This document shows positions 10,450 to 54,056 of a stretch of DNA of 64,000 nt, piece by piece. The DNA comes from Candidatus Wolfebacteria bacterium GW2011_GWB1_47_1 (lineage in GTDB: Bacteria > Patescibacteriota > Minisyncoccia > UBA6257 > UBA9933), in the NCBI GenBank assembly GCA_001029635.1, contig CP011209.1, positions 747,969 to 811,968 of the forward strand, in the 5' to 3' direction. A program made the position numbers and the translations under genes. The notes below the pieces were generated by a model. The model had not been told where the DNA came from, did no database searches, and saw nothing but the letters and a program-made list of their open reading frames with translations. The stretch's first letter is position 1. Each line of letters opens with the position of its first letter.

Positions 10450-10516
10450 ATTTGTCTTAAGTTAACTCAAGACAACATATCGATAACCTGTAGGCATAAC
10501 CTACGGGTTATTTCTT

Positions 10517-10714
10517 ATGCAGGAAGTTGCCGTCGAAAATGAAGTTAGAAAAGGCTTCAAAATAAATGATTTATCTCTTGAGGAAAGGCAAAGACTGGTC
10601 GGTGCTTTTGCGTGGCTCATAGAACAAGACAAGAAGCAAAATCCTGCACTTTATCAACCTAAAAAACAAGACGAAGATGATAGATACAATATGCCTTCTG
10701 ATACCCAAGAATAG
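10517..10714 (+). CDS. small acidic hypothetical protein (65 aa)
   Basis: ORF track; preceded by the hairpin aacctgtaggcataacctacgggtt. Confidence 0.3.
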   Translation: MQEVAVENEVRKGFKINDLSLEERQRLVGAFAWLIEQDKKQNPALYQPKKQDEDDRYNMPSDTQE

Positions 10715-11819: not shown

Positions 11820-12228
11820 TGCTACTCCATAAATGGTCCCAAATATAAACATTACAAAATAAATTATTATGAAAAATAAAAAGTATAAAATCGATAAGGA
11901 CGAACGACTTGTTGGAATTATAAAAATGGCCTTTGAGCAGTATTATCGCAAGGTTATCTCGGATAATATAAAGAGGTCTTTGGCGCAAAAGCGAGCCAAG
12001 TTGTCCACTAACCCTAAAGTTGCTCTGTAAAGTAATGTAAAGTATAATGAATACCATTATGGAGCCTGAGGAACTCCCAAATGAGAAGGTTAATCGGCGT
12101 ATGGCTATTTTGTTTTGGACATTATCAGTCTGCGCCTTTATGATTATATTTCAGTTAGCAAATCTTATGGTCCCCGAATTATTTCCTCCGTCTTCTATCG
12201 CTCAATCAATATAAGCAGCTGCAACATT

Positions 12229-12411
12229 ATGAACACTAACAAAAAGAACTTCTACAAAGCAGAAGACCTCGCGAAGTTATTAGAGGTAAACATTATGACG
12301 ATTTACCGATATATTAAGGCTGGTCGCTTAAAGGCGTATAAAATTGGTCGTGAGTTTCGAATTGATAAAATTGAGTTTAGTGCTTTTTTAGAAAAAGCGC
12401 GGACTAAATAA
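12229..12411 (+). CDS. excisionase-family HTH DNA-binding protein
   Basis: IMTIYRYIKAGRLKAYKIGREFRIDKIEFSAFLE matches the excisionase/MerR-type HTH. The ORF track entry starts further upstream, at 12115. Confidence 0.65.
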   Translation: MNTNKKNFYKAEDLAKLLEVNIMTIYRYIKAGRLKAYKIGREFRIDKIEFSAFLEKARTK

Positions 12412-12413
12412 AT

Positions 12414-14207: not shown

Positions 14208-16579
14208 ACATATTCAACCCATCAAAATTTCAAAAAGATGCCGTCATAAATCTAACAGAGATTTTTACTACGGTATGGAAGCAACAAGGTAGACAATTAC
14301 CTATTGTTTTTAAATCCCCGACTGGAAGTGGTAAGACTTTTATGACCTCCCTTTTCATCCGCGGCCTTAACCACCTACCACAGTGGAAAGAAGATAAAGC
14401 ATTTATATGGATTACTTTTAGCGATGATTTGGCTATGCAAAGCAAAAATAAGTTTCTTGAGTATTTTGAAAATATGCTTGAAAATAGAGCTTTGACCGTT
14501 GCAGATATAAATCAAGGCAAACTCTACCAAAATGATATTTTATTTTTAAACTGGCAAAAGGTTACTGCCAAAAATGCTAATACGCGATTAATTCGCCGCC
14601 CCGAAGATAAGGAATGGCAAAAGGAACAGGGAGAATACTTTGAAGATGTGGTCGAACAAACTCAAGCCGATAGTAGACAAATTATCTTAATAATTGATGA
14701 GGCTCACAAGAATAAAGACACAAAACTCGCAAAGGATATTATTGATAAAATTGACCCTAAGGTAATTCTTCACATTACTGCGACACCAAACGAGAAAGAC
14801 GAACTTGAAGCTCGTCGTATTGGCAGTTTTTATGAGGTCCCCCGAGAGGAAGTTGTTGAGCAGGGCTTAATCAAAGAAGCAATCATTACTCAAACGGAAG
14901 AAGATTTCGAGGGTATGTCGGGAAAAGACCTTGATAAAATCCTCCTCGAAAATGGGATGAAAAAACGAGAGGAATTAAAAGCAGAACTTAAATCACTGGG
15001 TAAGAATATAAACCCTTTGATGCTTATACAGTTACCAAATGATGATGATAAACTTATAGAAAAGGGCGAACAGAAGAAGGAGGATATCGTTACTGATTAT
15101 CTTCTTAAAAATAAGGTTCCCGAGCATAGGATAGCAAAATGGTTTAATAAGAACCCTCGGCCAAATAATTTAGAAGAGCTCAGCGATGAGCACGACTTTT
15201 TACTCTTTAAACAGGCGGCTGGAACAGGCTGGGATTGCCCTCGTGCATCAGTACTTGTAATGTTTAGGGAAATACAATCGAATACCTTTTATACTCAAAC
15301 CGTTGGGCGTATTTTAAGAATGCCTGAGCCTCACGCAAAAGAAGATTATAAAAATAACCCCAATCTTCGCTTGGGATATTTATATACGAACTACAAGCGC
15401 AAGGAGGTAATAATACCAGACCAAAATCCCGCCAATCAACCTTTGACTGAGTTTGCCCATAGGAAGAAGGACATAAGCAATATCGAATTACCATCTGACT
15501 ATATTTCTCGCTTAGATTATGGCGATATTCGCGTATCTTCTAAATTTCAAGAAGTATTTAAAACAGAACTAAATAAGCACTTCGGGATTACTAATAATGA
15601 TATTCTTGGAAAAGCAGAAACGAAGCTTAAAAAGGCAGGGTTGGACATTAGCGATACTTTAGTAAATGAAGTTATTGCAAATGCTCGTTTCGAGGATTAT
15701 GACAATCTCGCCTTTGATTTCAGTAAAAAAGGCAGCGATATTTCACTTGAAATGTCAGTAAGTGATATTGAAAAGACTTTTAATTATCTTTGTTATCAAA
15801 TCCTAAGGGAGCAGGAAGACGAGGGAGCTAAGTACTCAAATGTGGCTCGCTCTTGGTCAGTCTTAAAACAAGCGCTTCGCGTCTGGTTTAAAATCGTTTT
15901 GCGAGATGACCATATTTACTGGTATAAGATATTTATCAAAGATGTTCGCAAGGGCGCTGAGAGCAAATTTCGCCCAGCAATAACAAGGGCCTTACGAGCT
16001 TATAAGCCAATTTCTGACAGTCTACTAACCGACAAGAAAATAAAGGTAGAGGAAAAGGAAGCATATATTTTTACCATACAAGGCGAATATGGGTATCCCG
16101 AGCAATACAAAGTTGTCCCTCAGAAGTTATGCGCCTTGGATAAGTTTTACTTGCCCGAAGATTACAATGGGCGTAAAAATGAAATTGCCTTTGTTGAATA
16201 TCTGGAAAAAAAGAAAGGAAAAATTGATTGGTGGTTTAAAAATGGCAATCAGGGAAAGAAGTACTTGGGCGTTAAATACACAAACTCAATAACGAACGAG
16301 GATGGCTTATTTTACCCCGACTGGATTATTCGTTTTCCTGATGGCCGTATAGGTATTTTCGATACCAAAAAAGGAGATACTGCTACAAGCACTGAAACAG
16401 CAGATAAGACAAAGGCATTGCAACAAAAACTTAAGAGTTTTGGAAAAAAGTTTCTTGGCGGTATCGCATATCAAGAAGCGGGCATTTGGTACTACAATGA
16501 TAGCCCCAAATACTCTTTTAAAGAGGGGCAATCGGTAAACGATAGCAAAGAATGGAAGCCTTTTGAGGATTTATTCTAA
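14204..16579 (+). CDS. res: Type III restriction enzyme Res subunit (SF2 helicase plus PD-DxK nuclease)
   Basis: Walker A SPTGSGKT; DEAH box LIIDEAHKN; motif VI TQTVGRILR; C-terminal PDW...IGIFDTKKG nuclease motif. Confidence 0.75.
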   Translation: MNIFNPSKFQKDAVINLTEIFTTVWKQQGRQLPIVFKSPTGSGKTFMTSLFIRGLNHLPQWKEDKAFIWITFSDDLAMQSKNKFLEYFENMLENRALTVADINQGKLYQNDILFLNWQKVTAKNANTRLIRRPEDKEWQKEQGEYFEDVVEQTQADSRQIILIIDEAHKNKDTKLAKDIIDKIDPKVILHITATPNEKDELEARRIGSFYEVPREEVVEQGLIKEAIITQTEEDFEGMSGKDLDKILLENGMKKREELKAELKSLGKNINPLMLIQLPNDDDKLIEKGEQKKEDIVTDYLLKNKVPEHRIAKWFNKNPRPNNLEELSDEHDFLLFKQAAGTGWDCPRASVLVMFREIQSNTFYTQTVGRILRMPEPHAKEDYKNNPNLRLGYLYTNYKRKEVIIPDQNPANQPLTEFAHRKKDISNIELPSDYISRLDYGDIRVSSKFQEVFKTELNKHFGITNNDILGKAETKLKKAGLDISDTLVNEVIANARFEDYDNLAFDFSKKGSDISLEMSVSDIEKTFNYLCYQILREQEDEGAKYSNVARSWSVLKQALRVWFKIVLRDDHIYWYKIFIKDVRKGAESKFRPAITRALRAYKPISDSLLTDKKIKVEEKEAYIFTIQGEYGYPEQYKVVPQKLCALDKFYLPEDYNGRKNEIAFVEYLEKKKGKIDWWFKNGNQGKKYLGVKYTNSITNEDGLFYPDWIIRFPDGRIGIFDTKKGDTATSTETADKTKALQQKLKSFGKKFLGGIAYQEAGIWYYNDSPKYSFKEGQSVNDSKEWKPFEDLF

Positions 16580-16584
16580 ACATT

Positions 16585-18120
16585 ATGAAAGCAATAATCG
16601 TCGCACGAGTATCAACTGAAGAACAAAGAGAAGCTGGTAATTCCCTACCCGCTCAGCTTACTCGTATGCAAGATTATTGCGAGCGGAATGGCTATTCTAT
16701 AATCGAGACTTTTAGTTTTGATGAGAGTGCTTACAAAACCAAGCGCGACGAGTTCGATAAAATCATTGCCTGCGTAAACGGCACAAAAGAAAAGGTTGCC
16801 GTTTGCTTTGATAAAGTAGACCGCCTATCACGCAATATCTTTGATAAGCGGGTTGCCTTACTTTACGAGCGAGCTGTTGATGATAAAATCGAGCTTCATT
16901 TTGTCTCCGATAACCAAGTCATCAACAATAAAATGTCGGCTGGCGACAAGTTTGCGTTCGGAATGAAACTCGGGTTGTCTAAATACTATTCGGATGCAAT
17001 CAGCGATAATGTAAAACGCGCGTTTGAGCAAAAGCGCAGAAATGGCGAATGGACCAGTGCCGTTCGATTGGGATATCTTAATGTTTCCTTAGATGCAGAA
17101 CAGCGGTTACGCAAGGATATTATCATAGACCCCGAGCGAGGGCATCTTATTCAAAAACTATTTGAGCTATATGCAACTGGGAACTACTCACTTGAGACGC
17201 TACGAATAAAAATGATTGAAATGGGCTTAGTGAGCCAAAAGGGTTTCAAGCCGTCAAAAAGCTGTATCGATAATATACTAAATGACACTTTTTACTGCGG
17301 TGTCGCTATGTCAAAGAAATATGGCTCTTTCCCCCATAGATACCCTCGTCTAATAACAAGGGAACTTTTTGATAGGTGCCAAGAGATACGCTTAAATCGC
17401 GTCAAAATGCCCAATAAGGCGCTTTCCAAGGACTTTATATTCAAAGGGTTACTCCGATGTCAGAACTGCGGTTGTTCAATAAGCGCCGAGAGAAAGATAA
17501 AGAAAAGTGGCCGTGAGTTTGTCTACTATTCCTGCACTAATGGCAAAGGTATATGCAAACGGGTGTATATACCCGAAAAAGACCTTCTAAGGCCCGTGTA
17601 CGAGGTTTTAGAGCGGTTTGAGAGCATAACAGAAGAGACACAAAATGAGCTTGTCGCCGAGCTTCGTAAGAATACGGAGGCCGAGGTAGTATTTCACAAG
17701 GCTCAGATAAACCGCATACGAGGCGAATACGAACAGATTAAGACGAAAGATGACCGACTACTTGAGGCATATTTGGACCAGTGTATTACTAAGGACATCT
17801 ATGACAAAAAACATCAAGAGTATGCGGATAAGCTACAGGTTTTGAATATTGAACTTTCCGAGTATACAAAAGCGGACCACGATTACCAAACGACTATTGC
17901 TACCGTGCTTTCTGTCGCTCGCAGAGCAAAGACTATATTTGAGAAAAGTTCTGAAGTTGCAGGAAAACGGGCGTTTCTGAATTACATACTTCAGAACCCG
18001 ACTGTAAACGAAAAAACGCTTGGTTTTACCTTGCGTTCTCCGTTCAACTTAGTCCTAAAACTTGCTGATTGTCCTAACTTGCTCCCCGGGAGGGATTCGA
18101 ACCCCCGACCATCTCGTTAA
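16585..18120 (+). CDS. large serine recombinase (paralog of 6395..8044)
   Basis: VARVSTEEQ catalytic Ser; VDRLSRN; CQNCGC...CTNGKGIC zinc ribbon. The last 13 codons are encoded by the tRNA-Asn 3' half. Confidence 0.85.
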   Translation: MKAIIVARVSTEEQREAGNSLPAQLTRMQDYCERNGYSIIETFSFDESAYKTKRDEFDKIIACVNGTKEKVAVCFDKVDRLSRNIFDKRVALLYERAVDDKIELHFVSDNQVINNKMSAGDKFAFGMKLGLSKYYSDAISDNVKRAFEQKRRNGEWTSAVRLGYLNVSLDAEQRLRKDIIIDPERGHLIQKLFELYATGNYSLETLRIKMIEMGLVSQKGFKPSKSCIDNILNDTFYCGVAMSKKYGSFPHRYPRLITRELFDRCQEIRLNRVKMPNKALSKDFIFKGLLRCQNCGCSISAERKIKKSGREFVYYSCTNGKGICKRVYIPEKDLLRPVYEVLERFESITEETQNELVAELRKNTEAEVVFHKAQINRIRGEYEQIKTKDDRLLEAYLDQCITKDIYDKKHQEYADKLQVLNIELSEYTKADHDYQTTIATVLSVARRAKTIFEKSSEVAGKRAFLNYILQNPTVNEKTLGFTLRSPFNLVLKLADCPNLLPGRDSNPRPSR

Positions 18121-18154
18121 CAGCGAGCCGCTCTACCACTGAGCTACCAGGGAA
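18082..18154 (-). tRNA. tRNA-Asn (GTT)
   Basis: Reverse complement TCCCTGGTAGCTCAGTGGTAGAGCGGCTCGCTGTTAACGAGATGGTCGGGGGTTCGAATCCCTCCCGGGGAG folds as a cloverleaf with a GTT anticodon and a GTTCGAATC T-loop. Confidence 0.85.
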
Positions 18155-28366: not shown

Positions 28367-28759
28367 TTATGCGTCCTTGAATATCTGCGTGATTTTAAAC
28401 ACTCGGCACCCGGGATGTCGACATGCGACACGCGATACGCTCGCGTAATACCCCCGCGACCACCAATAATCCTTGATCGGACCGTATCGACGGACCCCAA
28501 TCGCCCGATCCTCCCAATCTGGAAGATGTAGCTCGGGGGTTCGATGCGCATACCCTAGTGCACACATTAATTGAAGCCCGAGATACCGAACCGCCATCTT
28601 TCCCCAGTGCCAGGCAAATATACCCACCAACCAGAGCAATACGCTACATACGACCGTCATAACCACATAGTAGCAGGGGTTTCGCGTACCTCCCATTGAC
28701 CACCAGGTCATAGCAACGACTAGTACGGCTGCGAATCCATACGACATCTTTCGTATCAT
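28367..28759 (-). CDS. hypothetical membrane protein (130 aa)
   Basis: ORF with AGGAGG 8 nt upstream of the ATG; Trp/hydrophobic-rich; GC-rich region where several shadow ORFs overlap. Confidence 0.4.
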   Translation of the reverse strand: MIRKMSYGFAAVLVVAMTWWSMGGTRNPCYYVVMTVVCSVLLWLVGIFAWHWGKMAVRYLGLQLMCALGYAHRTPELHLPDWEDRAIGVRRYGPIKDYWWSRGYYASVSRVACRHPGCRVFKITQIFKDA

Positions 28760-33139: not shown

Positions 33140-33481
33140 CTACTTTTCGTAGCGGAGAAAGGTGTACCACTCGCCTAAGGTGCCTTTCTGATACATAACG
33201 ACACGTGATCCGTTCCCCAGCTGCGGTGGGCACCCATTCGCATGGAGCGCGCCCCAGGTTTTCGTCTCTTCGATGTACACTGCGTATCCGATGAGCGGAC
33301 TACCCGATACGATCTGCGCCCCGCCGACCACTTGGCCGACGACTTCCTTAACCTTGACGTCACTAGCGGCTGCCTGCGCTGTGTCTTCTTTGTTTTTTTC
33401 CCCCGCTCCATACCAGGTAAACACAGCGATGAGCGCGGCAAGGCATATCAGCACAAACATGCCTGATTTCTGATTTCCCAT
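33140..33481 (-). CDS. small secreted or membrane-anchored hypothetical protein (113 aa)
   Basis: N-terminal hydrophobic segment; ORF track. Confidence 0.5.
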   Translation of the reverse strand: MGNQKSGMFVLICLAALIAVFTWYGAGEKNKEDTAQAAASDVKVKEVVGQVVGGAQIVSGSPLIGYAVYIEETKTWGALHANGCPPQLGNGSRVVMYQKGTLGEWYTFLRYEK

Positions 33482-34700: not shown

Positions 34701-35156
34701 CTAGGGGGTTCCCAATTTCTTCCTCCTCGCCACTATGCGATTGCTTCTTTCCCAGTCTTCGGCCGACGGGATCTCTTCGCCGTACCCCATCCGATTGGCT
34801 GTAAGCGGAAAGTCCCGCATCATCGCAGCTACAAAGCTCTCCGGAGAAAGCTCCTCGAGCGCGAACTGCCGCTCAACCCGCTTACGGGCAGCTTCCAGGC
34901 CTTCGTCCGGCCACAGCCGCCCGTGCATGGACGAGATCAATACGCACGGCACCGCACCCTCTGCCAGCTTGAGGCGGTAGATCGAGGCCGGCCGCCCCTT
35001 CGTATCCTTTATCACGGGACTGTTCCCGGTTACCTCCACCACACCCCGGATCGACTTGCCGGAGAACGAATACAGCTCCCCATCCTTGCAGATCCACAGC
35101 GTGGAATTTCTTCCTGCGGTCTGCGCTGCACTGTTATATACAAACGCTTCTCTCAT
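34701..35156 (-). CDS. GC-rich hypothetical protein (151 aa)
   Basis: GGAGG SD 5 nt upstream; ~58% GC versus ~45% in the flanks; no homology recognised. Confidence 0.5.
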   Translation of the reverse strand: MREAFVYNSAAQTAGRNSTLWICKDGELYSFSGKSIRGVVEVTGNSPVIKDTKGRPASIYRLKLAEGAVPCVLISSMHGRLWPDEGLEAARKRVERQFALEELSPESFVAAMMRDFPLTANRMGYGEEIPSAEDWERSNRIVARRKKLGTP

Positions 35157-35368: not shown

Positions 35369-35911
35369 ATGGGAATCATGGCAAAGAATGGGTATGTATT
35401 GGTGCGCCTTGATGAGGCAAATGATGTATGGGAATCCATTCGACAAGCAACTAGAGAAACGACACGAATATCTCGGGAAAAAGTGTTTCGGATCGCCTCG
35501 CGTTTCGAAAACCTTATATTTGAACTCACCCCCGAGGAAGAAGCCGACCTCCTTGCATGGGGGTCTCAGACCATCAAACAAAGAGTCGAGGATAGATTCG
35601 TTACGAGCGGCTTCACGTGGGCCGAGATGGAACGCTGGGTCGCAAACTGCTATCTCATGCGCATCAACCCCCTCCCCACTCTTCGTCGGCTATGTGAACC
35701 CTTTGCACTTCCCGTCTACTACCGCAAGGATACGGAACTGTTTTTCGACCCGCTTTGCGGGCTCCTCTGCGTCGAAACCAAAGATTACACAAACCAGAAT
35801 TCGGTACGATTAACCGTCTTTGGAACCTTCGAGGATCTAAGGAAGGAGCTCGCCGAAATCGCGCGCGTCGATGAAGTCTTTATGAGTATTCGGGAGCATA
35901 ACGACAACTAG
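35369..35911 (+). CDS. hypothetical protein (180 aa)
   Basis: AGGAGG 8 nt upstream; followed by an intrinsic terminator. Confidence 0.55.
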   Translation: MGIMAKNGYVLVRLDEANDVWESIRQATRETTRISREKVFRIASRFENLIFELTPEEEADLLAWGSQTIKQRVEDRFVTSGFTWAEMERWVANCYLMRINPLPTLRRLCEPFALPVYYRKDTELFFDPLCGLLCVETKDYTNQNSVRLTVFGTFEDLRKELAEIARVDEVFMSIREHNDN

Positions 35912-35948: not shown

Positions 35949-36062
35949 AACTGCAGATTCCTCGACTTCATAGAGTACCGCGGAGTTTACCCTGAGCTTG
36001 TCGAATGGGCTCGGAATGACCCCGTAAAGTCCGCCCCGGGCGGACCACGAGGCAAGCACTGC

Positions 36063-36124: not shown

Positions 36125-37387
36125 TCACTCATATTCTCGAATGATCAATTGGGAGTTGATCTGTCGGATCGTTTCAAGTGCAACGGATACCACAATCAAG
36201 ATCGCGGTTCCTCCGATGGTCAACACGGCAATGCCGGTGAACATGCGGACGATATTCGGCAGAATCGCGATCAATCCAAGGAAGATTGCCCCCCACAAGG
36301 TGATGCGACTGATGACCTTGGTTAGGAAGGTCGTTGTCGACTCTCCTGGGCGGATGCCTGCGATGAATCCTCCCGCACGCTGGAGATTCTTTGAAATCTC
36401 ACTCGGATCGAATGTCACTGCCGTATAGAAATACGTGAAGATAACGACGAGCAGGAAGTATGCCGCGCTATACAAATACTGATTGTTCATAAACTGACTC
36501 ACAAAATCGGTCAGCTTCAATGAAAGGCTCTTTGAAAAGATCGCACTGATCTGCGCAACAAATTGCGGGAACAGGAGCAATGATATCGCAAAGATGATCG
36601 GTATAACGCCTGCTTGGTTTACCTTGATTGGTAAATAGCTTGAAACGCCACCATACATCTTGGTACCACGCACCTGCTTCGCGTACGAAACCGGAATCTT
36701 GCGCTCGCCTTCGTTGATATATACAACGCCCGCGATAACCGCAATCGCCACGATTACAAATCCAATATAGGTCGGGAGATCACTCGGATTGTATGTCTGC
36801 AAAATGTTTATGATCGTCTGCGGAAGACCGCTCACAATACCCGCAAAGATGATCAACGAAATACCATTACCAATCTTCTGCTCTGAAATCAATTCACCAA
36901 TCCACATAACCAGCATCGATCCGGCCATAATCACGAGTACATTCTTGATCAAATCCATCAGACCAAGACTTCCGACAACTCCCTGCGACGCAAGCAAGTT
37001 AAGAAATCCGTATGCCTGCAACCCTGCCAACGGCACGGTGAGATAGCGAGAGTAACGATTGAACTTTGCCCGTCCTGCAGCTCCTTCCTCGTAATACATC
37101 TCCTTCATCTTCGGGAAGATCATGGTCATCAACTGCATGATGATTGTCGCCGTAATGTACGGCCCGACACCCAACATAATAATGGATAAATTGCTTAGCG
37201 TTCCTCCGGCCATAATACCGACAAAACTAAACAACTGATTCGAACCGAAGAATTCTTCGAGCCTCATCTTATCAACTCCCGGAATTGGGATTGCCGAAAG
37301 GATCCGGAAACACACCAACAGGAATCCAACGGTCAAGACCTTCATCCGCAAATCCCTCAACTTGAAAATTTTCAGATATTTTTCCAT
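36125..37387 (-). CDS. secY: preprotein translocase subunit SecY
   Basis: 10 TM helices in the SecY pattern; 420 aa. Confidence 0.9.
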   Translation of the reverse strand: MEKYLKIFKLRDLRMKVLTVGFLLVCFRILSAIPIPGVDKMRLEEFFGSNQLFSFVGIMAGGTLSNLSIIMLGVGPYITATIIMQLMTMIFPKMKEMYYEEGAAGRAKFNRYSRYLTVPLAGLQAYGFLNLLASQGVVGSLGLMDLIKNVLVIMAGSMLVMWIGELISEQKIGNGISLIIFAGIVSGLPQTIINILQTYNPSDLPTYIGFVIVAIAVIAGVVYINEGERKIPVSYAKQVRGTKMYGGVSSYLPIKVNQAGVIPIIFAISLLLFPQFVAQISAIFSKSLSLKLTDFVSQFMNNQYLYSAAYFLLVVIFTYFYTAVTFDPSEISKNLQRAGGFIAGIRPGESTTTFLTKVISRITLWGAIFLGLIAILPNIVRMFTGIAVLTIGGTAILIVVSVALETIRQINSQLIIREYE

Positions 37388-37433
37388 GAATTAGTACTGC
37401 CCTTCTATAGGAAAGGGCTCTATTAGTGGAATT

Positions 37434-37462
37434 AGTATAGGGCAAAAATCGAGTCTATGCAA
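37434..37462 (-). promoter_or_regulatory. candidate sigma70 promoter for secY (TTGCAT-17-TATACT)
   Basis: Read on the minus strand; secY is separated from rplO by a terminator and a foreign gene. Confidence 0.4.
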
Positions 37463-37522
37463 GAGATTTTTACGAAAAACCTACTATTCTCCAGACCAAG
37501 AGAGGCTCCCTTTTAAAATGCC

Positions 37523-37551
37523 TTGACATTATTATATATATGTGCTAATAT
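37523..37551 (+). promoter_or_regulatory. near-consensus sigma70 promoter TTGACA-17-TAATAT
   Basis: Direct read; ~70 nt upstream of the 37624 ATG. Confidence 0.5.
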
Positions 37552-37623
37552 ATTTATGTTCACCATAGCTCTTTAACCGAGTGATAGAAATATCGCTCAC
37601 AACCACACCCCAGGAGGTGTAGC

Positions 37624-38247
37624 ATGGCAGCTCCCAAAGGGAGAAAGTTCTCGGTAATAGCGTTGCAGTTCAGATTCCCCACCCTCGACAGCGTCCCTCC
37701 TTTCACGAGGCAGATAGCGCGTCGCCCGACCAAGACATCCAATCCGGCGACGCTTACCGGAGAACAGATCGTCGGCGCAACGGAAGGCACGTCCATCCTT
37801 GCACTCCTCGACGATCTCAAGGCGAAGGGGTACGACCTGGTTAATGCATGCTGCGAGGAGCGGCGCAACGTCAAAGGCCCCGGCTCGCATTACATCGCCC
37901 GGTACACCTTTGCAACCGCCGAGAGCGGGTTGTCGATCACCGAACGCTTCGAGTATCGCAAGGCAACGTTCCTCCGGGAGCTCGCCTTCATCGGCGAGTC
38001 GGCCCTGTGGAAGAACCGGACGTTCTCCAACCCCTTCATTAGGGACGGGAAACCGGTCACCGGTTTCCGTGCGGCGAGTCTGGTCTTCGACACCCGCCAA
38101 CCCTTCTACCAGGGTGACGGCCAGCCGGTCACGGTCTGGCTCAAGGACGAGGCAGGCGAGCGCATCGGCGATGCGCCCATTCCCCTGGCCCCCTCCCACC
38201 ACCTCCGCTACCTGAAGACCAAGGGCTTCAGGGTCGTGAGCGCCTAG
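37624..38247 (+). CDS. GC-rich orphan protein (207 aa) inserted between secY and rplO
   Basis: AGGAGG 6 nt before the ATG; ~62% GC; own promoter and terminator; opposite strand to the surrounding operon. Confidence 0.6.
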   Translation: MAAPKGRKFSVIALQFRFPTLDSVPPFTRQIARRPTKTSNPATLTGEQIVGATEGTSILALLDDLKAKGYDLVNACCEERRNVKGPGSHYIARYTFATAESGLSITERFEYRKATFLRELAFIGESALWKNRTFSNPFIRDGKPVTGFRAASLVFDTRQPFYQGDGQPVTVWLKDEAGERIGDAPIPLAPSHHLRYLKTKGFRVVSA

Positions 38248-38270
38248 TCAAATAAGGCGTAATCTCAACC

Positions 38271-38298
38271 AGCCGGCACTTCGTGTGCCGGCTTTTTC
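38271..38298 (+). terminator. intrinsic terminator agccggcacttcgtgtgccggct + ttttt
   Basis: Directly after the stop of 37624..38247. Confidence 0.6.
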
Positions 38299-38312
38299 GT
38301 ATCTTCGTGATA

Positions 38313-38336
38313 ACAAAAAAGGAGCATATGCTCCTT
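38313..38336 (-). terminator. bidirectional terminator aaaaaaggagcatatgctcctttttt after rplO
   Basis: Perfect palindromic hairpin flanked by an A-run and a T-run. Confidence 0.55.
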
Positions 38337-38341
38337 TTTTG

Positions 38342-38815
38342 TTATTTTTGCTTTTTTGCCACTACCGGTTTTTTCACCACCGGCGGCTTTACGGTCGGCG
38401 CTTCCACCGATCCGCCTTTTACCTCGATCTTTTCTTTTGCTGACTTAGATACTTCCAATCCCTTGACGGTAAACTTCTTGGTTACGTCTCCGTTGCCAAG
38501 AATCTTAATGTCCGTGTCGGACTTGCGTATCACACCTGCCGCGACCAATGTTTCCAAGGTCACTAGCGTGTCAGTCATTTTTGCGTCGATGACGTTGAGG
38601 TTAATACCCATCGCCTTCCCGAAGAGCGGCTTGTTCTTGAAACCGCGCAATTTCGGAATACGGATAAGCATTTCATGCAAGGCCGGGTTCATCTTATGGC
38701 CTGCGCGCGATTTCTGACCCTTGTGTCCGGTGCCGGAATTATCTCCTCGCTTACCGCCACGGCCTACTCGCTTTTTGGTTTTTCCCGGATGAAGGGGTTT
38801 GATTTCGTGCAACAT
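38342..38815 (-). CDS. rplO: 50S ribosomal protein L15
   Basis: GRGxxSGxGKTxGRGxKGQK motif. Confidence 0.9.
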   Translation of the reverse strand: MLHEIKPLHPGKTKKRVGRGGKRGDNSGTGHKGQKSRAGHKMNPALHEMLIRIPKLRGFKNKPLFGKAMGINLNVIDAKMTDTLVTLETLVAAGVIRKSDTDIKILGNGDVTKKFTVKGLEVSKSAKEKIEVKGGSVEAPTVKPPVVKKPVVAKKQK

Positions 38816-48166: not shown

Positions 48167-48667
48167 TTAGAACGTCGCGGATGCGACAATCTCGCGGCAT
48201 TTTGCGATAATCGCCGCCTTATCGGCGTCCGTCAGTCCGGTACGCATTACAGGGTAATGCAAAAACAATCTGCCGAATTCCGGTCCTCGAGTACGTATTG
48301 CTCCAATAAGGTGCCCTTCCTTTAGGATGCCGGCGTAGCCGGTGCCTTCCCCATTGAATACCAATGGGGATTCAACTGGCGGATCCTGAACCATAGGAAA
48401 CTGTTTCAGGGTCATAGTCGCTTCACATGCCACCACCAGTACCTCGACATCGCTCTTCCGCTTAACTTCATCGATTTTATCGGCTATTTTGCGCAACTCC
48501 GCGGCAGTATACCTGCGTCCGACCAACGGGCCATACTGACATAGGCCATATTGAGATTGAAATGATACTTCTCCGCTATAATCGCCGATAGTCCCCAAAA
48601 ACTCAGTAGATCCTCTTCTTACATCGGTTACCGCATTCCGATCATCGAATCCTATTTCTGAATCCAT
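48167..48667 (-). CDS. hypothetical protein (166 aa), paralog of 48761..49171; possibly GlcG/DUF336-like
   Basis: AAGGAGG SD; own TTGACA promoter; shares YTAAELRKIADKIDE / YSSAELREIADKVDE and C-terminal A(I/V)(A/K)KC(R/A)E with its neighbour. Confidence 0.5.
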   Translation of the reverse strand: MDSEIGFDDRNAVTDVRRGSTEFLGTIGDYSGEVSFQSQYGLCQYGPLVGRRYTAAELRKIADKIDEVKRKSDVEVLVVACEATMTLKQFPMVQDPPVESPLVFNGEGTGYAGILKEGHLIGAIRTRGPEFGRLFLHYPVMRTGLTDADKAAIIAKCREIVASATF

Positions 48668-48760: not shown

Positions 48761-49171
48761 CTATTTCCTTGCGAGCTCGGCGCATTTGACTGCGATCTCC
48801 ATCATTTCTTCTGGAGAAACCGAGCGTCTATTGGAATTTTGCCACGACTTCCATCTCCCGGGCCATCTCCCGTCTATATTTATCGTTCCGAGAGCCCCTT
48901 TTCTGTTGTGGACAATTAGTGCGGCCCCGACTGGACCATCTACTTGAATAAACACTAACGCCGTTTTTTTGCTCTCCCCCTCCTGTAATTCATCCACTTT
49001 GTCGGCGATCTCCCTCAACTCCGCAGAAGAATAGCAGTGCCCATTCTGAGCTCCGTGCAAACACAGAAACGCTCTTTTCCCACCCAACGTACTGACCGCC
49101 CCTAAGCGCCAGCTGCCCCTCATTACGTTTTGGCAAACGCCATGCTCCGTAAAGCTAAGCTTTTTGGACAT
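48761..49171 (-). CDS. hypothetical protein (136 aa), paralog of 48167..48667
   Basis: GGGAGG SD; TTGACA-17-TATAAA upstream. Confidence 0.5.
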   Translation of the reverse strand: MSKKLSFTEHGVCQNVMRGSWRLGAVSTLGGKRAFLCLHGAQNGHCYSSAELREIADKVDELQEGESKKTALVFIQVDGPVGAALIVHNRKGALGTINIDGRWPGRWKSWQNSNRRSVSPEEMMEIAVKCAELARK

Positions 49172-49671: not shown

Positions 49672-50349
49672 TTACATTTCGCCACGGTCGGCAAAGATCG
49701 CGCAATCACCAACCGCTTGCGGTTGCGGTTCCTTTGCGTGACTGTTGCTCGGCTGTTCCGCTTCGCCGAAGTCGGCCAGCTTGAGGAGCTGCAGAAGCAT
49801 CTCGTCCTCCAGGTTATTTACACCCCTTACTCTCTGCTCGGTTACGGGGCGGTATCCAACCTTTACTTCCTCGCCCTTATAGTGAGCACTGTTGTATGTA
49901 TAGATACCTGGAGAATATGTTTCCCATTGCCCTTTGCCGCCGGCGATCGCCAAATGATCGTGTCCATTCCTAACGATTTCAGCATGACCGAACGGCGTAT
50001 CTTCGGAAAACGTCTGTCGCGCCAAAGCCTCCAGTCTTCCGAATGCAGGACCAAATCTTACCTCCCGTTCGGCACATTTTTTTACGAATTCCTCTGCTTT
50101 TGCGCTGATCTCCTTCCACTGTTCGAGCGTGAACGTATTAGAATAGGACATGATTCTCGAGGAATCATCTTCGATCTTCGTTCCGGAAATGGTAATCCTG
50201 CCACTCGCTCGTATGTGACCGATATGCTCCTCGCCAAGAAGCATATCAACCGCGAGCTCCGTGAAATAGCTCACGCCCTTGCGGATACTCATAAATTGCC
50301 GCATCCCTTCTTCAAATCTCAGTGTCGGGCTCTTCTTTTCCTCGGTCAT
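49672..50349 (-). CDS. hypothetical protein (225 aa)
   Basis: AAGGAG SD 7 nt upstream; ORF track. Confidence 0.5.
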   Translation of the reverse strand: MTEEKKSPTLRFEEGMRQFMSIRKGVSYFTELAVDMLLGEEHIGHIRASGRITISGTKIEDDSSRIMSYSNTFTLEQWKEISAKAEEFVKKCAEREVRFGPAFGRLEALARQTFSEDTPFGHAEIVRNGHDHLAIAGGKGQWETYSPGIYTYNSAHYKGEEVKVGYRPVTEQRVRGVNNLEDEMLLQLLKLADFGEAEQPSNSHAKEPQPQAVGDCAIFADRGEM

Positions 50350-51306: not shown

Positions 51307-52134
51307 ATGCAACAGTATCTTGATCTCATCCAGGATGTTCTCAACAATGGAAAGCGTAAAGGCGACCCCCACGGCATCGGCAATCTCGCTGTATGCGGGC
51401 GGACCATGCGCTTCGACCTCACTGAGGGGTTTCCTCTCATCACCACCAAAAGCATGAAGAGTCTGTGGAAGTCTGTCATCGGCGAACTGCTTTGGTTCCT
51501 TTCGGGGAGTACGAGCATCGCCGATCTCAAGGCGTACGGTGTCAACTTCTGGGACCAGTGGGCGGACCAAAAGACCTGCGATATCATGGGTCTTCCGCTC
51601 GGCGAACTCGGACCGATCTACGGCAAACAGTGGCGCGCCTTCGAAGGAGGTGGCCCCAAGCCCGTGGACCAGATCCAACAGCTCGTCAACGATCTCAAGA
51701 CCAGTCCCGATTCACGAAGACTGATCGTCTCGTCCTGGAACCCGGTCGACGCAGATCGCGTGTTCGTAGCTCCCTGCCACTGCTTTTACAAGCTGTATCA
51801 CGCAGAGGGAGAGCTCTCCCTGCATCTGTTCCAGCGGAGTGGGGACATGCCCATCGGTATCCCTTTCAACATCGCGGAGTACTCACTCCTTCTGATGATG
51901 TTGGCGCAGATCACCGGGCTCAAGGCAAAAGAGTTCATCCATACCATTTCTGACACCCACATCTATCTGAACCAGATCGAGTTCATGCGCGAGCAACTTA
52001 CCCGCGATCCGCGGCCGTTGCCTAGCGTGACCCTCAATTCCAACATCACCGACATCTTCGGCTTCACCCCCGACGACTTCATTCTTACGGGGTACGATCC
52101 GCATCCTTACATCAAGATCCCCGTCGCGTGGTAA
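51307..52134 (+). CDS. thyA: thymidylate synthase
   Basis: APCHCFYKLY active-site Cys region; GDTHIYLNQ; C-terminal GYDPHPYIKIPVAW. Confidence 0.9.
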   Translation: MQQYLDLIQDVLNNGKRKGDPHGIGNLAVCGRTMRFDLTEGFPLITTKSMKSLWKSVIGELLWFLSGSTSIADLKAYGVNFWDQWADQKTCDIMGLPLGELGPIYGKQWRAFEGGGPKPVDQIQQLVNDLKTSPDSRRLIVSSWNPVDADRVFVAPCHCFYKLYHAEGELSLHLFQRSGDMPIGIPFNIAEYSLLLMMLAQITGLKAKEFIHTISDTHIYLNQIEFMREQLTRDPRPLPSVTLNSNITDIFGFTPDDFILTGYDPHPYIKIPVAW

Positions 52135-52158
52135 CCCGCGATACACAAGGAGCTCTCT

Positions 52159-53142
52159 ATGATCATTTCGGTCATCTTCGCCATGAACGGCGATCGCATC
52201 ATTGGCAACAAAGGCGGTCTGCCCTGGCATCTGCCGAGCGATCTGCACCGATTCAGAGCACTCACCGCCGGCAAGCCGGTCATCATGGGGCGTCGGACCT
52301 TCGAGTCCATACTCGCCCGCAACCGAAAGCCGCTTCCCGACCGCTGTAACGTGGTCGTCACCCGCAATATCGCACCGTGGAAGCATCGCCAGAGCACGCA
52401 CCCCGAAATGTTTCGCAACTGCGTCTTTGTCGAATCGCTTCAGCAGGGCATCCATCTGATGAACCCCTCTCCCGAGGTATTCATCATTGGAGGGTCTCAG
52501 ATCTACGCACAGGCACTCTCGTTCGCTGACCGGATGTACTTCACACAAGTGCAGGGTAAATTTGAGGGAGATACAACATTCCCCCAGTTCAACCCGCACC
52601 AGTGGAGGACCGTCCATGACGAGCTCATACGCACAGACAACCATCCGTATGCGTTCTCGATCCTGGAGCGTCTCGACACCGGCGCGTCACTCGGATCAAC
52701 TTCGGGTACCGACCTGGTCAACCCGACCTTTGCCAAAAGCGAAGGGTATGGCAAGACCATTACTGAAATCATCGAGGCGGGCATCTGCCCGTTCTGCCCC
52801 GAACACTTCCTTTGGCATCCCTGGCCGATCCTACATCGCTCCGGCGACTGGATCCTCACTCGTAGCGGATGGCCGTACGAGAACGCAGAGCATCACTTCC
52901 TCATCATCGGAAACAAACACCTCATCGCCGACATCGACATGAGCGATGCCGACGACCATCATGTAAAAGGACTCACCCGATGGGCCATCGAACAATTCGG
53001 CCTCAAAGGATGGGGGAAGATCGCTCGTTCTGGCGAAACAAGCCACACCGGCGCGACCGTACAGCATTTGCACTACCATCTCATCCAGCCCAAACCGGGC
53101 CTGGATGGAAAGGCACTGCCAGTCAACTTCCCGATCGGATGA
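52159..53142 (+). CDS. folA: dihydrofolate reductase fused to a C-terminal HIT (Hint-like) domain
   Basis: Residues 1-165 are DHFR (GGLPWHLPSDL, VIMGRRTFESI, FIIGGSQIY). Residues ~200-327 carry CPFCP plus the histidine triad HLHYHLI. Confidence 0.8.
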   Translation: MIISVIFAMNGDRIIGNKGGLPWHLPSDLHRFRALTAGKPVIMGRRTFESILARNRKPLPDRCNVVVTRNIAPWKHRQSTHPEMFRNCVFVESLQQGIHLMNPSPEVFIIGGSQIYAQALSFADRMYFTQVQGKFEGDTTFPQFNPHQWRTVHDELIRTDNHPYAFSILERLDTGASLGSTSGTDLVNPTFAKSEGYGKTITEIIEAGICPFCPEHFLWHPWPILHRSGDWILTRSGWPYENAEHHFLIIGNKHLIADIDMSDADDHHVKGLTRWAIEQFGLKGWGKIARSGETSHTGATVQHLHYHLIQPKPGLDGKALPVNFPIG

Positions 53143-53159
53143 TATGGATCCACAAAAAA

Positions 53160-53186
53160 GCCCCGCGCATGCGGGGCTTGTTTTTA
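53160..53186. terminator. bidirectional terminator aaaaaagccccgcgcatgcggggcttgttttt
   Basis: Hairpin with flanking A- and T-runs between convergent folA and the deaminase gene. Confidence 0.55.
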
Positions 53187-53201
53187 TTCTCAGTAGGGCT
53201 A

Positions 53202-54056
53202 TCATGCCACATGGACGATCTCGACCCCCCGACTCCTGAGAATGCTTTCTCCCTCCAGATAAGCGCACCCGGAAGAAAAGTACAGTCGGGAAATTCCAGA
53301 TTCAGCTACGAGGCCAGCGCAAGGAGTGCACGGGAACACCGTGACATACAAATGCATGCCTTTGAGCGGGATGCCTTCGCGCGCAGCCCTGGCCACGATC
53401 CCTGCCTCGGCATGAATCGTGGACGCCAGCTCCGGGCTCGTGCCCGCCCGCACAAAGTCGCGCGGATCCCCTACAGCATACGGCGTATGCTCGCTCGGAA
53501 GATGTTTGTTGTGCGCCATCAACAAGACTTGCCTGCTTTCCGGATGGATCACCGCCGCACCTACTTGGCGCCACCAGCATGAGGTCTTTTGCCCCTCATC
53601 CTCCGCGGCCCGTATCGCCTCCTTATCGGCGAGGTCCACGGTCCTCCAGTCGAAGTTGACCTTTACTTCCAATTTTACTCGGTTAGGATCCCATCGGAGA
53701 AACACCGACTCTTTTACGACCGACTCTTCCGGGAAGTAGTGCTCAACGAAGCTTCTGCTTGCCTCATCGTTCGCGACAATGATCTGCCGTCCGTGTAGTC
53801 GCTGCAAGAACGCCAGCGACTGCCTGTTGAGCACCTCCACATGCGGGAATATCCGCAACCCCCGAATCGCCTTTACGACATCCTTCGGATCCATTGCCCT
53901 GATCTCGCGCACGCCGGGTTGAAGCTCTCGCATCATCTCGTTCCCAAACACGTAGCATGCCTCGATGCGATGCCGGTACCGCTCAAACAGATCGATATAC
54001 CCCTGATGGAGCACCGGCACATACAGCACGAGGAAACTTCTTATGAACGCATTCAT
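53202..54056 (-). CDS. dCMP/CMP-type deaminase domain protein with ~130-aa N-terminal extension
   Basis: C-terminal HAEAGIV...PCTPCAGL zinc-binding signature of the cytidine/deoxycytidylate deaminase fold. Confidence 0.65.
   Translation of the reverse strand: MNAFIRSFLVLYVPVLHQGYIDLFERYRHRIEACYVFGNEMMRELQPGVREIRAMDPKDVVKAIRGLRIFPHVEVLNRQSLAFLQRLHGRQIIVANDEASRSFVEHYFPEESVVKESVFLRWDPNRVKLEVKVNFDWRTVDLADKEAIRAAEDEGQKTSCWWRQVGAAVIHPESRQVLLMAHNKHLPSEHTPYAVGDPRDFVRAGTSPELASTIHAEAGIVARAAREGIPLKGMHLYVTVFPCTPCAGLVAESGISRLYFSSGCAYLEGESILRSRGVEIVHVA

What the first reader, a model, noticed from the sequence alone, without database searches (positions are those of the whole stretch)
37420..38343. Self-contained GC-rich gene cassette inserted between secY and rplO
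In bacteria rplO and secY are normally adjacent and co-transcribed. Here a 207-aa ORF on the opposite strand, ~62% GC in a ~45% GC locus, sits between them. It has a near-consensus promoter (TTGACA-17-TAATAT), a perfect AGGAGG SD and its own terminator. rplO is closed by a bidirectional terminator and secY carries a separate TTGCAT-17-TATACT promoter. Flanking core genes lack SD sequences entirely. The protein has no recognisable family. This looks like a recently acquired, autonomously expressed orphan gene.
Basis: partly seen in the sequence, partly recalled or inferred. Interest (0 to 1): 0.7.

Follow-up and report, generated by a model that had tools for sequence, protein, structure and literature searches.

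The report
Self-transcribed accessory gene splitting rplO–secY
A real, self-contained gene sits between two ribosomal-operon genes that are adjacent in relatives, but it is not a recent orphan. It belongs to a large, unnamed, fast-evolving protein family of Patescibacteria (CPR) whose members are GC-rich wherever they occur.

Summary
A 207-aa plus-strand ORF (37624-38247, 62% GC, GC3 0.80) lies between secY and rplO. It has a TTGACA-17-TAATAT promoter, an AGGAGGTG Shine-Dalgarno site and its own terminator. rplO ends in a bidirectional terminator and secY has its own promoter.

It is an insertion: three Wolfebacteria relatives (secY 88%, 77% and 73% identical) have rplO and secY adjacent or overlapping. 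It is neither recent nor an orphan:
- The same site is occupied in relatives with 97%, 96% and 87% identical secY (one, one and two copies).
- These copies are only 31-53% identical to ORF207, whereas core proteins are 87-98% identical. dN/dS is 0.35-0.50 against 0.01-0.15 for core genes.
- A profile search finds 585 clusters of ~200-aa homologues.
- In 20 of 21 loci the family gene is about 10 GC points richer than its contig, so the GC excess is a family trait, not a donor signature.

AlphaFold gives a confident model (pLDDT 92.8) with no fold match in PDB or BFVD, and no Pfam, NCBIfam, PHROG or PADLOC match.

Best reading: a moron-like autonomous cassette encoding an abundant, basic, probably non-catalytic binding protein. 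Its function is unknown.

The parts
37434..37462 (-). Separate secY promoter: TTGCAT, 17 nt, TATACT. It is followed by a ~45-nt leader with no Shine-Dalgarno site.
   Evidence: Read directly from the sequence. It is below the scanner's threshold. It is conserved in L001, L027 and L024 and absent from the cassette-free L023.
37523..37551 (+). Promoter of the inserted gene: TTGACA, 17 nt, TAATAT, with a TG extension.
   Evidence: 10 of 12 consensus positions. A TTGACA-type promoter stands upstream of every family gene examined.
37558..37623 (+). 5' leader. It contains the motif GCTCTTTAAC (37568-37577), a hairpin GAGTGATA/TATCGCTC (37580-37599), a C/A-rich tract, and the SD AGGAGGTG (37612-37619).
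   Evidence: The five cassettes at the rplO-secY site (window, L001, L027 and the two in L024) all have the motif followed by a 7-11 bp hairpin at the same position, each with an unrelated stem sequence. Folding z-scores for single sequences are weak (-0.6 to -2.8), so a function for the hairpin is inferred.
37624..38247 (+). Coding sequence of 207 aa (P0001), pI 9.8, with no signal peptide or transmembrane segment seen in the sequence. It is a member of an unnamed ~200-aa family found in Patescibacteria.
38271..38298 (+). Intrinsic terminator of the inserted gene: a 9-bp stem with 7 G-C pairs, followed by TTTTT.
   Evidence: An equivalent terminator follows every homologue examined.
38309..38346 (.). 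Bidirectional terminator closing rplO: a 17-bp palindrome, AAAAAAGGAGC..GCTCCTTTTTT.
   Evidence: It is conserved in L001, L027 and L024 and absent from L023, L025 and L028.
37597..38202 (-). Antisense shadow ORF of 201 aa. It is not a gene.
   Evidence: It is in exact codon register with the plus-strand frame. Its GC is highest at codon position 1 (0.78), which is the plus-strand GC3. TTA, CTA and TCA codons are absent from ORF207. It has no Pfam match.

Best explanation
**What it is.** The segment 37388-38341 is a lineage-specific insertion into the tail of the spc ribosomal-protein operon of a Candidatus Wolfebacteria genome. It is a complete monocistronic transcription unit: a sigma-70-type promoter, a structured leader, a strong Shine-Dalgarno site, a 207-aa ORF and a terminator. 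It points against the operon.

**What the insertion did (shown).** It cut rplO from secY. rplO now ends at a bidirectional terminator, and secY restarts from its own promoter.

**What the product is (shown).** The protein belongs to a large, uncurated family found so far only in Patescibacteria. Members are about 200 aa long and are solitary genes. They sit at different positions between housekeeping genes in different lineages. Each has the same promoter, SD and terminator layout. In 20 of 21 loci the gene is about 10 GC points richer than its contig. The predicted fold is confident and has no relative in PDB or BFVD.

**How it evolves (shown).** In the window's clade the gene is old enough to be shared with relatives. 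It changes at least ten times faster than its neighbours at the protein level. The site holds zero, one or two copies in different relatives.

**What it probably does (inferred).**
- It is probably made in large amounts, given the consensus promoter and the longest SD match in a genome whose core genes mostly lack an SD.
- It is probably soluble, basic and non-catalytic. The near-invariant residues are Gly, Pro, Phe and Trp plus two Arg and one Asn.
- It therefore probably acts by binding something. My best guess is a nucleic acid or a partner protein in a conflict or interaction setting (phage, or the host cell of the epibiont), not core translation.

The anatomy and evolutionary history are well supported. 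The biochemical function is a low-confidence guess.
For: **Anatomy.**

**Organism.** Candidatus Wolfebacteria bacterium GW2011_GWE1_48_7, from the source name of the identical protein.

**Real coding frame.** GC1/2/3 is 0.57/0.49/0.80. Homologues align over the full length, with a strongly conserved C-terminal motif DGxPVxxWxKDxxGxRxGDxPxPLxP. The AlphaFold model has pLDDT 92.8 and pTM 0.88.

**Family size and anonymity.**
- 585, 459 and 173 clusters at E<1e-3, 1e-10 and 1e-30.
- No Pfam, NCBIfam, PADLOC or PHROG match, and no PDB sequence match.
- Named genomes carrying the family are Patescibacteria, Liptonbacteria and Saccharibacteria, plus one 4.9-kb contig binned as Gammaproteobacteria.

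**Insertion.** The site is empty in L023, L025 and L028. It is occupied in L027 (one copy), L001 (one copy) and L024 (two copies). All three also carry the secY promoter and the rplO terminator.

**Rate of change.**
- Core proteins are 87-98% identical between the window and L001 or L027. ORF207 is 47-50% identical to their copies by global alignment.
- dN/dS is 0.35-0.50, against 0.01-0.15 for core genes.
- dS is 1.06-1.30. That exceeds the r-protein genes of L027 (0.41-0.63) but falls within the window-L001 range (0.46-1.09 for r-protein genes and secY; above 2 for adk and map).

**GC excess as a family trait.** 20 of 21 loci, mean offset +0.10, r=0.63 with contig GC.

**No fixed partner gene.** Neighbours elsewhere include dnaJ/tRNA-Lys|aspS, ftsH…|an S1-domain (rpsA-like) gene, groEL|thyX, a Peptidase_M50 gene|a class II aaRS, SpoU|a starch-synthase-type glycosyltransferase, and adk.

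**No link to mobile elements.** No match in IMG/VR contigs, GenBank phages or PLSDB plasmids.

**Protein properties.** pI 9.8 and net charge about +10. Near-invariant residues are listed.
Against: - No expression data are available. High expression is inferred from consensus signals only.
- Function is not constrained by any homology or by a conserved neighbour.
- Family pI ranges from 4.6 to 10.7, and only 57% of members are above 8. That weakens a general nucleic-acid-binding reading.
- No sliding window of the gene reaches pN/pS above 1 (maximum 0.90). Relaxed constraint explains the rate as well as an arms race does.
- A concatenated core-protein tree places the cassette-free L023 inside the cassette-bearing group, with 75% bootstrap. 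A simple single-gain history is therefore not secure.
- The codon usage is unlike that of the host's r-protein genes (CCC, GGC, GTC and CTC are preferred). This still fits repeated import from outside.
Confidence: 0.6

Rival explanations
1. First reader's view. The gene is a recently acquired orphan brought in by horizontal transfer from a GC-rich donor and has not yet drifted towards host composition.
For: - GC is 0.62 against about 0.48, and GC3 is 0.80.
- C-ending codons (CCC, GGC, GTC, CTC) are preferred, and the host's r-protein genes do not favour them.
- The site is empty in L023, L025 and L028.
- It carries an SD in a genome whose core genes mostly lack one.
Against: - The same site is occupied in L027, L001 and L024, with the same flanking promoter and terminator.
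- The orthologues are only about 50% identical and their synonymous sites are near saturation, yet all keep GC3 at 0.80-0.82. The composition is therefore maintained, not fading.
- The GC excess is seen in 20 of 21 family loci and scales with contig GC.
- The family has 585 clusters.
Confidence: 0.08
2. A mobile or recombination-driven cassette. The unit (promoter, gene and terminator) moves repeatedly into intergenic sites between conserved genes, or divergent alleles are swapped by homologous recombination through the conserved rplO and secY flanks. Frequent recombination could keep it GC-rich through biased gene conversion.
For: - The site holds 0, 1 or 2 copies among close relatives.
- The two L024 copies are 26% identical to each other and 31-36% identical to ORF207. 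Family members from other contexts, such as P0004 at 37% and L026 at 44%, are closer to ORF207 than they are.
- Cassette-free L023 falls inside the cassette-bearing group with 75% bootstrap.
- dS in the gene exceeds dS in the flanking r-protein genes of L027.
- The family sits at many different chromosomal positions.
- Three loci have a tRNA gene, or what looks like the end of one, just upstream.
- A ~45-nt palindromic element lies beside cassette terminators in four loci.
- The GC excess is maintained.
Against: - No recombinase, transposase or nuclease gene lies next to any copy.
- No direct or inverted repeats were seen at the edges of the window's cassette when read by eye against the empty site of L023.
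- The palindromic element is absent from the ORF207 cassette itself.
- No copies occur in viral contigs, phages or plasmids.
- The secY promoter and rplO terminator shared by the window clade and L024 argue for a single insertion event.
- dS is within the range of other core genes such as adk and map.
Confidence: 0.22
3. A relocating housekeeping factor. The protein is a ribosome-, RNA- or proteostasis-associated component specific to Patescibacteria. It happens to sit at different places in different lineages, and it is present elsewhere in the genomes whose rplO-secY site is empty.
For: - The expression signals are strong and the protein is basic.
- Neighbours are often translation or proteostasis genes: rplO/secY, dnaJ+tRNA-Lys/aspS, ftsH…/S1-domain gene, groEL, a Peptidase_M50 gene/aaRS, tRNA-Leu and a SpoU methylase.
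- The family is widespread.
Against: - dN/dS is 0.35-0.50 and identity is about 50% between hosts whose core proteins are 87-98% identical. That is unlike any core translation factor.
- Copy number varies.
- Translation genes make up a large share of these small genomes, so the neighbour pattern is not clearly above chance. No statistical test was made.
- Whether L023, L025 and L028 carry a copy elsewhere could not be tested, because only contigs were available.
Confidence: 0.1
4. Not a protein gene. The GC-rich stretch would be a structured RNA, or the real gene would be the minus-strand ORF that runs in the same direction as the operon.
For: A 201-aa minus-strand ORF spans the region. GC-rich islands in AT-richer genomes are often RNA genes.
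Against: - GC by codon position fits the plus-strand frame.
- 585 homologous protein clusters match in the plus-strand frame.
- The AlphaFold model has pLDDT 92.8.
- There is no Rfam match.
- The minus-strand ORF is in codon register with the plus-strand frame and has no Pfam match.
- High dS in the plus-strand frame means the first codon positions of the antisense frame are free to change.
Confidence: 0.01

Closest known systems
Phage 'morons'. These are single genes flanked by their own promoter and terminator, inserted between two genes that are adjacent in related phages, and usually of different base composition (definition as given in PMC4378225, Background).
   Same: The anatomy matches point for point. 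There is one ORF with its own promoter and terminator. It lies between two genes that are adjacent in relatives. Its composition differs from that of its neighbours. No insertion mechanism is visible.
   Different: - It lies in a cellular chromosome inside the spc ribosomal operon, not in a phage or prophage.
- No phage genes are nearby, and the family has no match in phage or viral collections.
- The composition difference is a stable family trait, not a sign of recent import.
- The insertion also brought or induced a new promoter for the downstream essential gene.
Novel gene families from uncultivated taxa that are specific to Patescibacteria (FESNov-type families, PMC10849945).
   Same: It is an unannotated family restricted, as far as seen here, to uncultivated Patescibacteria. 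It shows purifying selection over part of its length and has a confident predicted structure.
   Different: - That paper reports that novel Patescibacteria families are enriched in transmembrane and signal-peptide proteins (PMC10849945, section 8). No signal peptide or transmembrane segment was seen in this protein.
- I did not test whether this family is in that catalogue.
Free-standing homing endonuclease genes of T4-like phages (from my own knowledge, not tested against a reference set).
   Same: They are self-contained genes that sit between highly conserved genes, are present or absent among close relatives, and often have their own promoters.
   Different: No homing-endonuclease (LAGLIDADG, GIY-YIG, HNH) or other nuclease family was matched, by profile search or by fold search. 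The conserved residues do not look catalytic.

Membership tests
Moron (autonomous accessory transcription unit) | A single coding region flanked by its own promoter and terminator | tested here: met
   TTGACA-17-TAATAT promoter, SD, ORF and terminator. The same layout surrounds the homologues. The signals are sequence matches; transcription was not measured.
Moron (autonomous accessory transcription unit) | Inserted between two genes that are adjacent in related genomes | tested here: met
   rplO and secY are adjacent or overlapping in L023, L025 and L028.
Moron (autonomous accessory transcription unit) | Base composition differs from that of adjacent genes | tested here: met
   GC 0.62 and GC3 0.80, against 0.47-0.50 and 0.59 in the neighbours. 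The difference is family-wide.
Moron (autonomous accessory transcription unit) | Resides in a phage or prophage genome | tested here: not met
   The flanks are r-protein genes, secY, adk and map. There is no phage or viral match. It therefore works like a moron but is not filed as one.
Orphan gene (no homologues outside the genome or species) | No detectable homologues | tested here: not met
   585 clusters at E<1e-3. Loci were recovered from several Patescibacteria lineages.
Recently transferred gene | Absent from close relatives at the same site, and composition drifting towards that of the host | tested here: not met
   It is present at the same site in L027, L001 and L024. GC3 is 0.80-0.82 in all three close orthologues despite near-saturated synonymous divergence.
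Homing endonuclease or other nuclease-type selfish gene | A recognisable nuclease domain or fold | tested here: not met
Known anti-phage defence protein | A match to a PADLOC model, or a defence-island context | tested here: not met
   No PADLOC match for ORF207 or for three relatives. The neighbours are housekeeping genes. PADLOC covers only systems described by 2023.
Integron-type gene cassette | A promoterless ORF followed by an attC site, in an array next to an integrase | tested here: not met
   The cassette has its own promoter. No integrase lies within the rplO-map region. The ~45-nt palindrome found beside other cassettes is absent here.

The most novel reading that the evidence does not exclude
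The family could be a new class of chromosomal, moron-like cassettes specific to Patescibacteria. In this reading, each is a complete transcription unit encoding a protein of a previously unseen fold. The cassettes are exchanged or re-inserted between conserved housekeeping genes by a mechanism that leaves no recombinase behind. Recombination (biased gene conversion) or selection on the mRNA keeps them GC-rich. They diversify quickly because the protein takes part in conflict between the epibiont and its phages or its host cell. The three other cassettes in the same operon tail (orf113, orf151, orf180) would be further examples of the same process.
Probability: 0.15. Interest if true: 0.75.

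Novelty: new variant of a known kind. Interest (0 to 1): 0.45.

Why it matters
- The spc operon tail (rplO-secY-adk-map) is one of the most conserved gene orders in bacteria. Here a Wolfebacteria subclade has had it cut into separate transcription units by up to four autonomous accessory genes. New terminators and promoters keep the essential genes running. This is a clean natural example of how an operon is broken up and repaired.
- The inserted gene exposes a large unnamed Patescibacteria family with a confident predicted fold that has no relative in PDB or BFVD. The family evolves unusually fast and keeps a stable GC excess that no ordinary explanation covers. If the excess reflects frequent recombination or a special expression regime, it would say something about genome dynamics in an uncultivated phylum for which almost no genetics exists.
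- For annotation practice, it shows that a GC-rich island with its own promoter is not in itself proof of recent transfer.

Tried and rejected
**Searches that found nothing**
- Pfam, PHROG, PADLOC and NCBIfam scans of ORF207, and of 115 family members for Pfam, gave nothing above noise.
- A profile search of PDB sequences gave one hit at E=1.2.
- The viral-contig scan and tblastn against phages and plasmids found no match.
- Four literature searches found no description of this family or of insertions at rplO-secY.

**Ideas tested and dropped**
- *Minus-strand gene or RNA:* rejected on codon-position GC, register, homologues and Rfam.
- *Are the four cassettes of the operon tail related to each other?* No, by BLAST or by hhalign.
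- *Positive selection:* no 30-codon window has pN/pS above 1.
- *A leader motif shared with other cassettes in the window:* GCTCTTTAAC occurs only at ORF207.
- *A CIRCE-like heat-shock operator upstream of orf180 or ORF207:* orf180 has one half-site only. Rejected by eye.

**Technical points and corrections**
- The genome-contig scan with the 115-sequence alignment failed because no stretch was conserved enough. The 4-sequence alignment was used instead, and it samples only the closer subfamily.
- I first took 62018-63211 for tuf. Pfam shows it is a GAF/HATPase_c kinase, so no comparison with tuf is claimed.
Full report
**1. The observation**

The window comes from Candidatus Wolfebacteria bacterium GW2011_GWE1_48_7, a member of the CPR/Patescibacteria. 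This follows from the source name of a database protein identical to the ORF product.

secY is at 36125-37387 (-) and rplO at 38342-38815 (-). Between them lies a 207-aa ORF on the plus strand at 37624-38247. Its GC is 0.622, against 0.47-0.50 for its neighbours. Its GC3 of 0.80 is the highest of about 80 ORFs in the window.

- **Promoter:** TTGACA-17-TAATAT with a TG extension.
- **Shine-Dalgarno site:** AGGAGGTG four bases before the ATG, the longest SD match in the window.
- **Own terminator:** 38271-38298.
- **Bidirectional terminator closing rplO:** a 17-bp palindrome with A- and T-runs at 38309-38346.
- **secY promoter:** TTGCAT-17-TATACT on the minus strand.

Most core genes of the window, including secY and the r-protein genes, have no SD. 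Promoter-like and terminator-like sites are not more frequent here than in shuffled sequence. The case therefore rests on their placement and on their conservation in relatives.

**2. A real protein gene on the plus strand**

GC by codon position is 0.57/0.49/0.80 in the plus-strand frame. The 201-aa minus-strand ORF has its highest GC at position 1. It lies in exact codon register with the plus-strand frame and stays open because ORF207 uses no TTA, CTA or TCA codons.

Homologues align over the full length. They share a conserved N-terminal QF(R/S)F and a C-terminal motif DGxPVxxWxKDxxGxRxGDxPxPLxP. Rfam finds nothing in the region.

**3. Not an orphan**

The word-indexed search found only three relatives. 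An exhaustive profile search of 1.84 billion cluster representatives found 585 clusters with E<1e-3, of which 459 have E<1e-10 and 173 have E<1e-30. Nearly all are 190-235 aa long and match end to end.

None of 115 members matches Pfam beyond noise. ORF207 and selected relatives match nothing in NCBIfam, PADLOC or PHROGs. A profile search of PDB sequences gave nothing.

Genomes with names that carry the family are Patescibacteria, Liptonbacteria and Saccharibacteria MAGs, plus one 4.9-kb contig binned as Gammaproteobacteria. No copy was found in IMG/VR contigs, GenBank phages or PLSDB plasmids.

**4. Synteny: an insertion, but not a recent one**

I took relatives graded by secY identity.

| Locus | secY identity to window | State of the rplO-secY site |
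|---|---|---|
| L027 | 97% | one family gene (208 aa), opposite strand |
| L001 | 96% | one family gene (209 aa), opposite strand |
| L024 (Wolfebacteria GWC2_39_22) | 87% | two family genes in tandem (204 and 214 aa) |
| L023 | 88% | empty; 30-bp gap |
| L025 | 77% | empty; 136-bp gap, no ORF |
| L028 (Wolfebacteria GWA2_42_10) | 73% | empty; rplO and secY overlap by 4 nt |

In L023 and L028 secY-adk-map is also compact.

The occupied lineages share two further elements that L023 lacks: the rplO terminator palindrome and the secY promoter with its leader. This argues for one insertion event in their common ancestor. That event cut the operon and was accompanied by a new terminator and a new promoter.

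A concatenated tree of rplF, rplR, rpsE, rplO and secY nevertheless places L023 inside the occupied group, with 75% bootstrap. The history is therefore either one gain with L023 misplaced, or one gain followed by a clean loss, or exchange by recombination. I could not resolve this.

**5. Rate of evolution**

Between the window and L001 or L027, core proteins are 87-98% identical (secY 96-97%). The family protein is 47-50% identical by global alignment. P0002, from a 989-bp contig, is a fourth allele at 51-54%. The two L024 copies are 31-36% identical to ORF207 and 26% identical to each other.

dN/dS is 0.35-0.50, against 0.01-0.15 for core genes. dS for the gene is 1.06-1.30. That is higher than in the r-protein genes of L027 (0.41-0.63). 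It falls within the window-L001 range, which is 0.46-1.09 for r-protein genes and secY and above 2 for adk and map. It is therefore compatible with co-divergence, although synonymous sites are close to saturation for a gene with GC3 of 0.8.

No 30-codon window reaches pN/pS above 1. The most variable parts are residues 20-58 and 98-136, and the most constrained is 157-196.

**6. The GC excess is a family trait**

L001 and L027 keep GC3 at 0.82 and 0.80 in contigs of 51-52% GC. Across 21 family loci from contigs of 36-58% GC, the gene is richer than its contig in 20. The mean offset is +0.10, and gene GC follows contig GC (r=0.63, slope 0.82, p=0.002).

A single GC-rich donor pool would give a constant gene GC, so this pattern argues against one. 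Because synonymous sites have turned over between orthologues while GC3 stayed at 0.8, some force maintains the composition.

That force is not simply the host's translational preference. ORF207 prefers CCC, GGC, GTC and CTC, whereas the host's r-protein genes prefer CCG and GGA. Part of the C-over-G bias fits the strand, since the plus strand is C-rich throughout the window. The amino-acid composition also contributes (GARP 0.33 against 0.23-0.28; GC2 0.49). The cause remains unexplained. Candidates are selection on the mRNA, biased gene conversion, or repeated import.

**7. Anatomy is conserved across the family**

Every family gene examined has a TTGACA-type promoter, a GGAGG-type SD and an intrinsic terminator, and appears to be monocistronic.

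The five copies at the rplO-secY site share a leader architecture. The motif GCTCTTT(A/C/T)AC starts 16-18 nt after the -10 hexamer. A 7-11 bp hairpin follows, with a different stem sequence in each copy. Then come a C/A-rich tract and the SD. This is structural conservation with full covariation, but it rests on only five sequences with weak individual z-scores.

Elsewhere the family sits between unrelated housekeeping genes:
- dnaJ and tRNA-Lys | aspS
- ftsH … | an S1-domain (rpsA-like) gene
- groEL | thyX
- a Peptidase_M50 gene | a class II aaRS
- SpoU | a starch-synthase-type glycosyltransferase
- tRNA-Leu | a CDP-alcohol phosphatidyltransferase
- upstream of adk

No partner gene recurs, and no recombinase, transposase or phage gene is adjacent in any locus.

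**8. What it most likely is and does**

*Shown:*
- It is a complete autonomous transcription unit inserted against the direction of the spc operon.
- It belongs to a large family seen here only in Patescibacteria, with a confident predicted fold that has no PDB or BFVD relative.
- It evolves fast and varies in copy number.

*Inferred:*
- Expression is probably high. The promoter is near consensus, and the SD is the longest match in a genome where SDs are otherwise confined to accessory or unknown genes and to thyA and folA.
- It probably acts by binding, not by catalysis. The near-invariant positions are F16, P25, G46, R80, F96, W129, N136, P137, R158, P160, G166, G178 and G182. There is no conserved Asp, Glu, His, Cys, Ser or Lys set.
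- ORF207 is basic (pI 9.8), although the family median is 8.5 and the range is wide.

My best guess is an abundant soluble binding protein involved in some interaction under rapid turnover, such as with phage, the host cell of the epibiont, or nucleic acid. I hold this with low confidence. The description of anatomy and history carries most of the 0.6 confidence.

**9. Comparison with what is known**

The closest match in anatomy is the phage moron: a single gene with its own promoter and terminator, inserted between genes that are adjacent in relatives, with deviant composition (definition in PMC4378225). Three of the four defining features are met. The fourth, residence in a phage, is not. 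It therefore works like a moron but is not one.

Free-standing homing endonuclease genes share the habit of sitting between conserved genes, but no nuclease domain or fold is present. It is not an integron cassette, not a known defence protein and not an orphan.

It resembles the many unnamed families of uncultivated Patescibacteria (PMC10849945). That paper reports such families to be enriched in membrane and secreted proteins, whereas no signal peptide or transmembrane segment was seen in this protein.

**10. Verdict**

Novelty: a new variant of a known kind, namely a moron-like cassette in a cellular ribosomal operon that encodes an uncharacterised family.

Interest is moderate (0.45). Hypothetical genes are common in CPR genomes. 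Four features go beyond the ordinary: the break-up and repair of the spc operon, the tenfold or greater rate excess, the family-wide maintained GC offset, and the fold without relatives.

Noticed in passing
window 1-18153: The first ~18 kb is 35-38% GC, against 47-49% for the rest, and it ends at tRNA-Asn (18081-18153, -). It carries two large serine recombinases (6395-8044 and 16585-18120; the second overlaps the tRNA by about 40 nt). It also carries a type III restriction-modification pair (Mod 12414-14207, Res 14204-16579). This looks like an integrated mobile island at tRNA-Asn.
   Followed up: partly
window 4776-4900 (-): An Rfam LOOT RNA match (74.4 bits, gathering score 46.4) lies inside the low-GC island.
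   Followed up: no
window 51307-54056: A GC-rich block (56-57% GC, GC3 0.68-0.74) encodes three genes. They are thymidylate synthase (51307-52134), a 327-aa protein with DHFR in its first 170 residues (52159-53142), and a dCMP-deaminase-domain protein (53202-54056, -). Its C-ending codon bias resembles that of ORF207, and thyA and folA carry SD sites.
   Followed up: partly
window 33140-33481 (-), 34701-35156 (-), 35369-35911 (+): Three more self-contained cassettes of unknown function interrupt secY-adk-map. orf113 has an N-terminal hydrophobic stretch that looks like a membrane anchor; the others are orf151 and orf180. Each has an SD and a terminator; the scanner found a TTGACA-type promoter for orf113 and orf151, and orf180's TTGACA was read by eye. 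They are absent from L023 and L028. orf180 has homologues in L001 and L024. orf151 is duplicated in L001. They are 40-55% identical to their L001 counterparts, where core genes are 82-98% identical. They are unrelated to ORF207 by BLAST, and orf151 and orf180 also by hhalign.
   Followed up: partly
window 36018-36062; also L001 2575-2625, L024 2425-2470 (-), L026 1070-1115: A ~45-nt imperfect palindrome, GACCCCGTAAAGTCCGCC…GGCGGACCACGrGGCAAGC, forms nested stems. In four loci it lies just beyond the terminator of an accessory cassette. It may be a REP-like element or a small RNA. It is not present beside ORF207 itself.
   Followed up: partly
window 18000-64000, gene starts: Shine-Dalgarno motifs are missing from almost all core genes, including the r-protein genes, secY and the aaRS gene. 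They are present on accessory or unknown small ORFs (28367-28759, 48167-48667, 48761-49171, 49672-50349, the four cassettes), on thyA and folA, and on a GAF/HATPase_c kinase gene (62018-63211). This suggests two classes of translation initiation in one genome.
   Followed up: partly
L002 1560-2030 (-) and 2107-2478 (+): On a 3-kb contig, a family member (37% identical to ORF207) lies 0.8-1.3 kb upstream of an ORF with a weak LAGLIDADG hit and of a UPF0102 (YraN-like) gene. By eye, the sequence at the contig edge just upstream of the gene looks like the end of a tRNA gene, though ARAGORN did not call one.
   Followed up: no
L010 2514-4103 (-), L021 2394-3983 (-), L007 3672-5303 (-): A 529-543-aa protein with no Pfam match lies between ftsH and the family gene in three loci. 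In L021 it is also strongly GC-rich (0.57, GC3 0.72, in a contig of 41.5% GC). It is a second GC-rich unknown gene next to the family.
   Followed up: no
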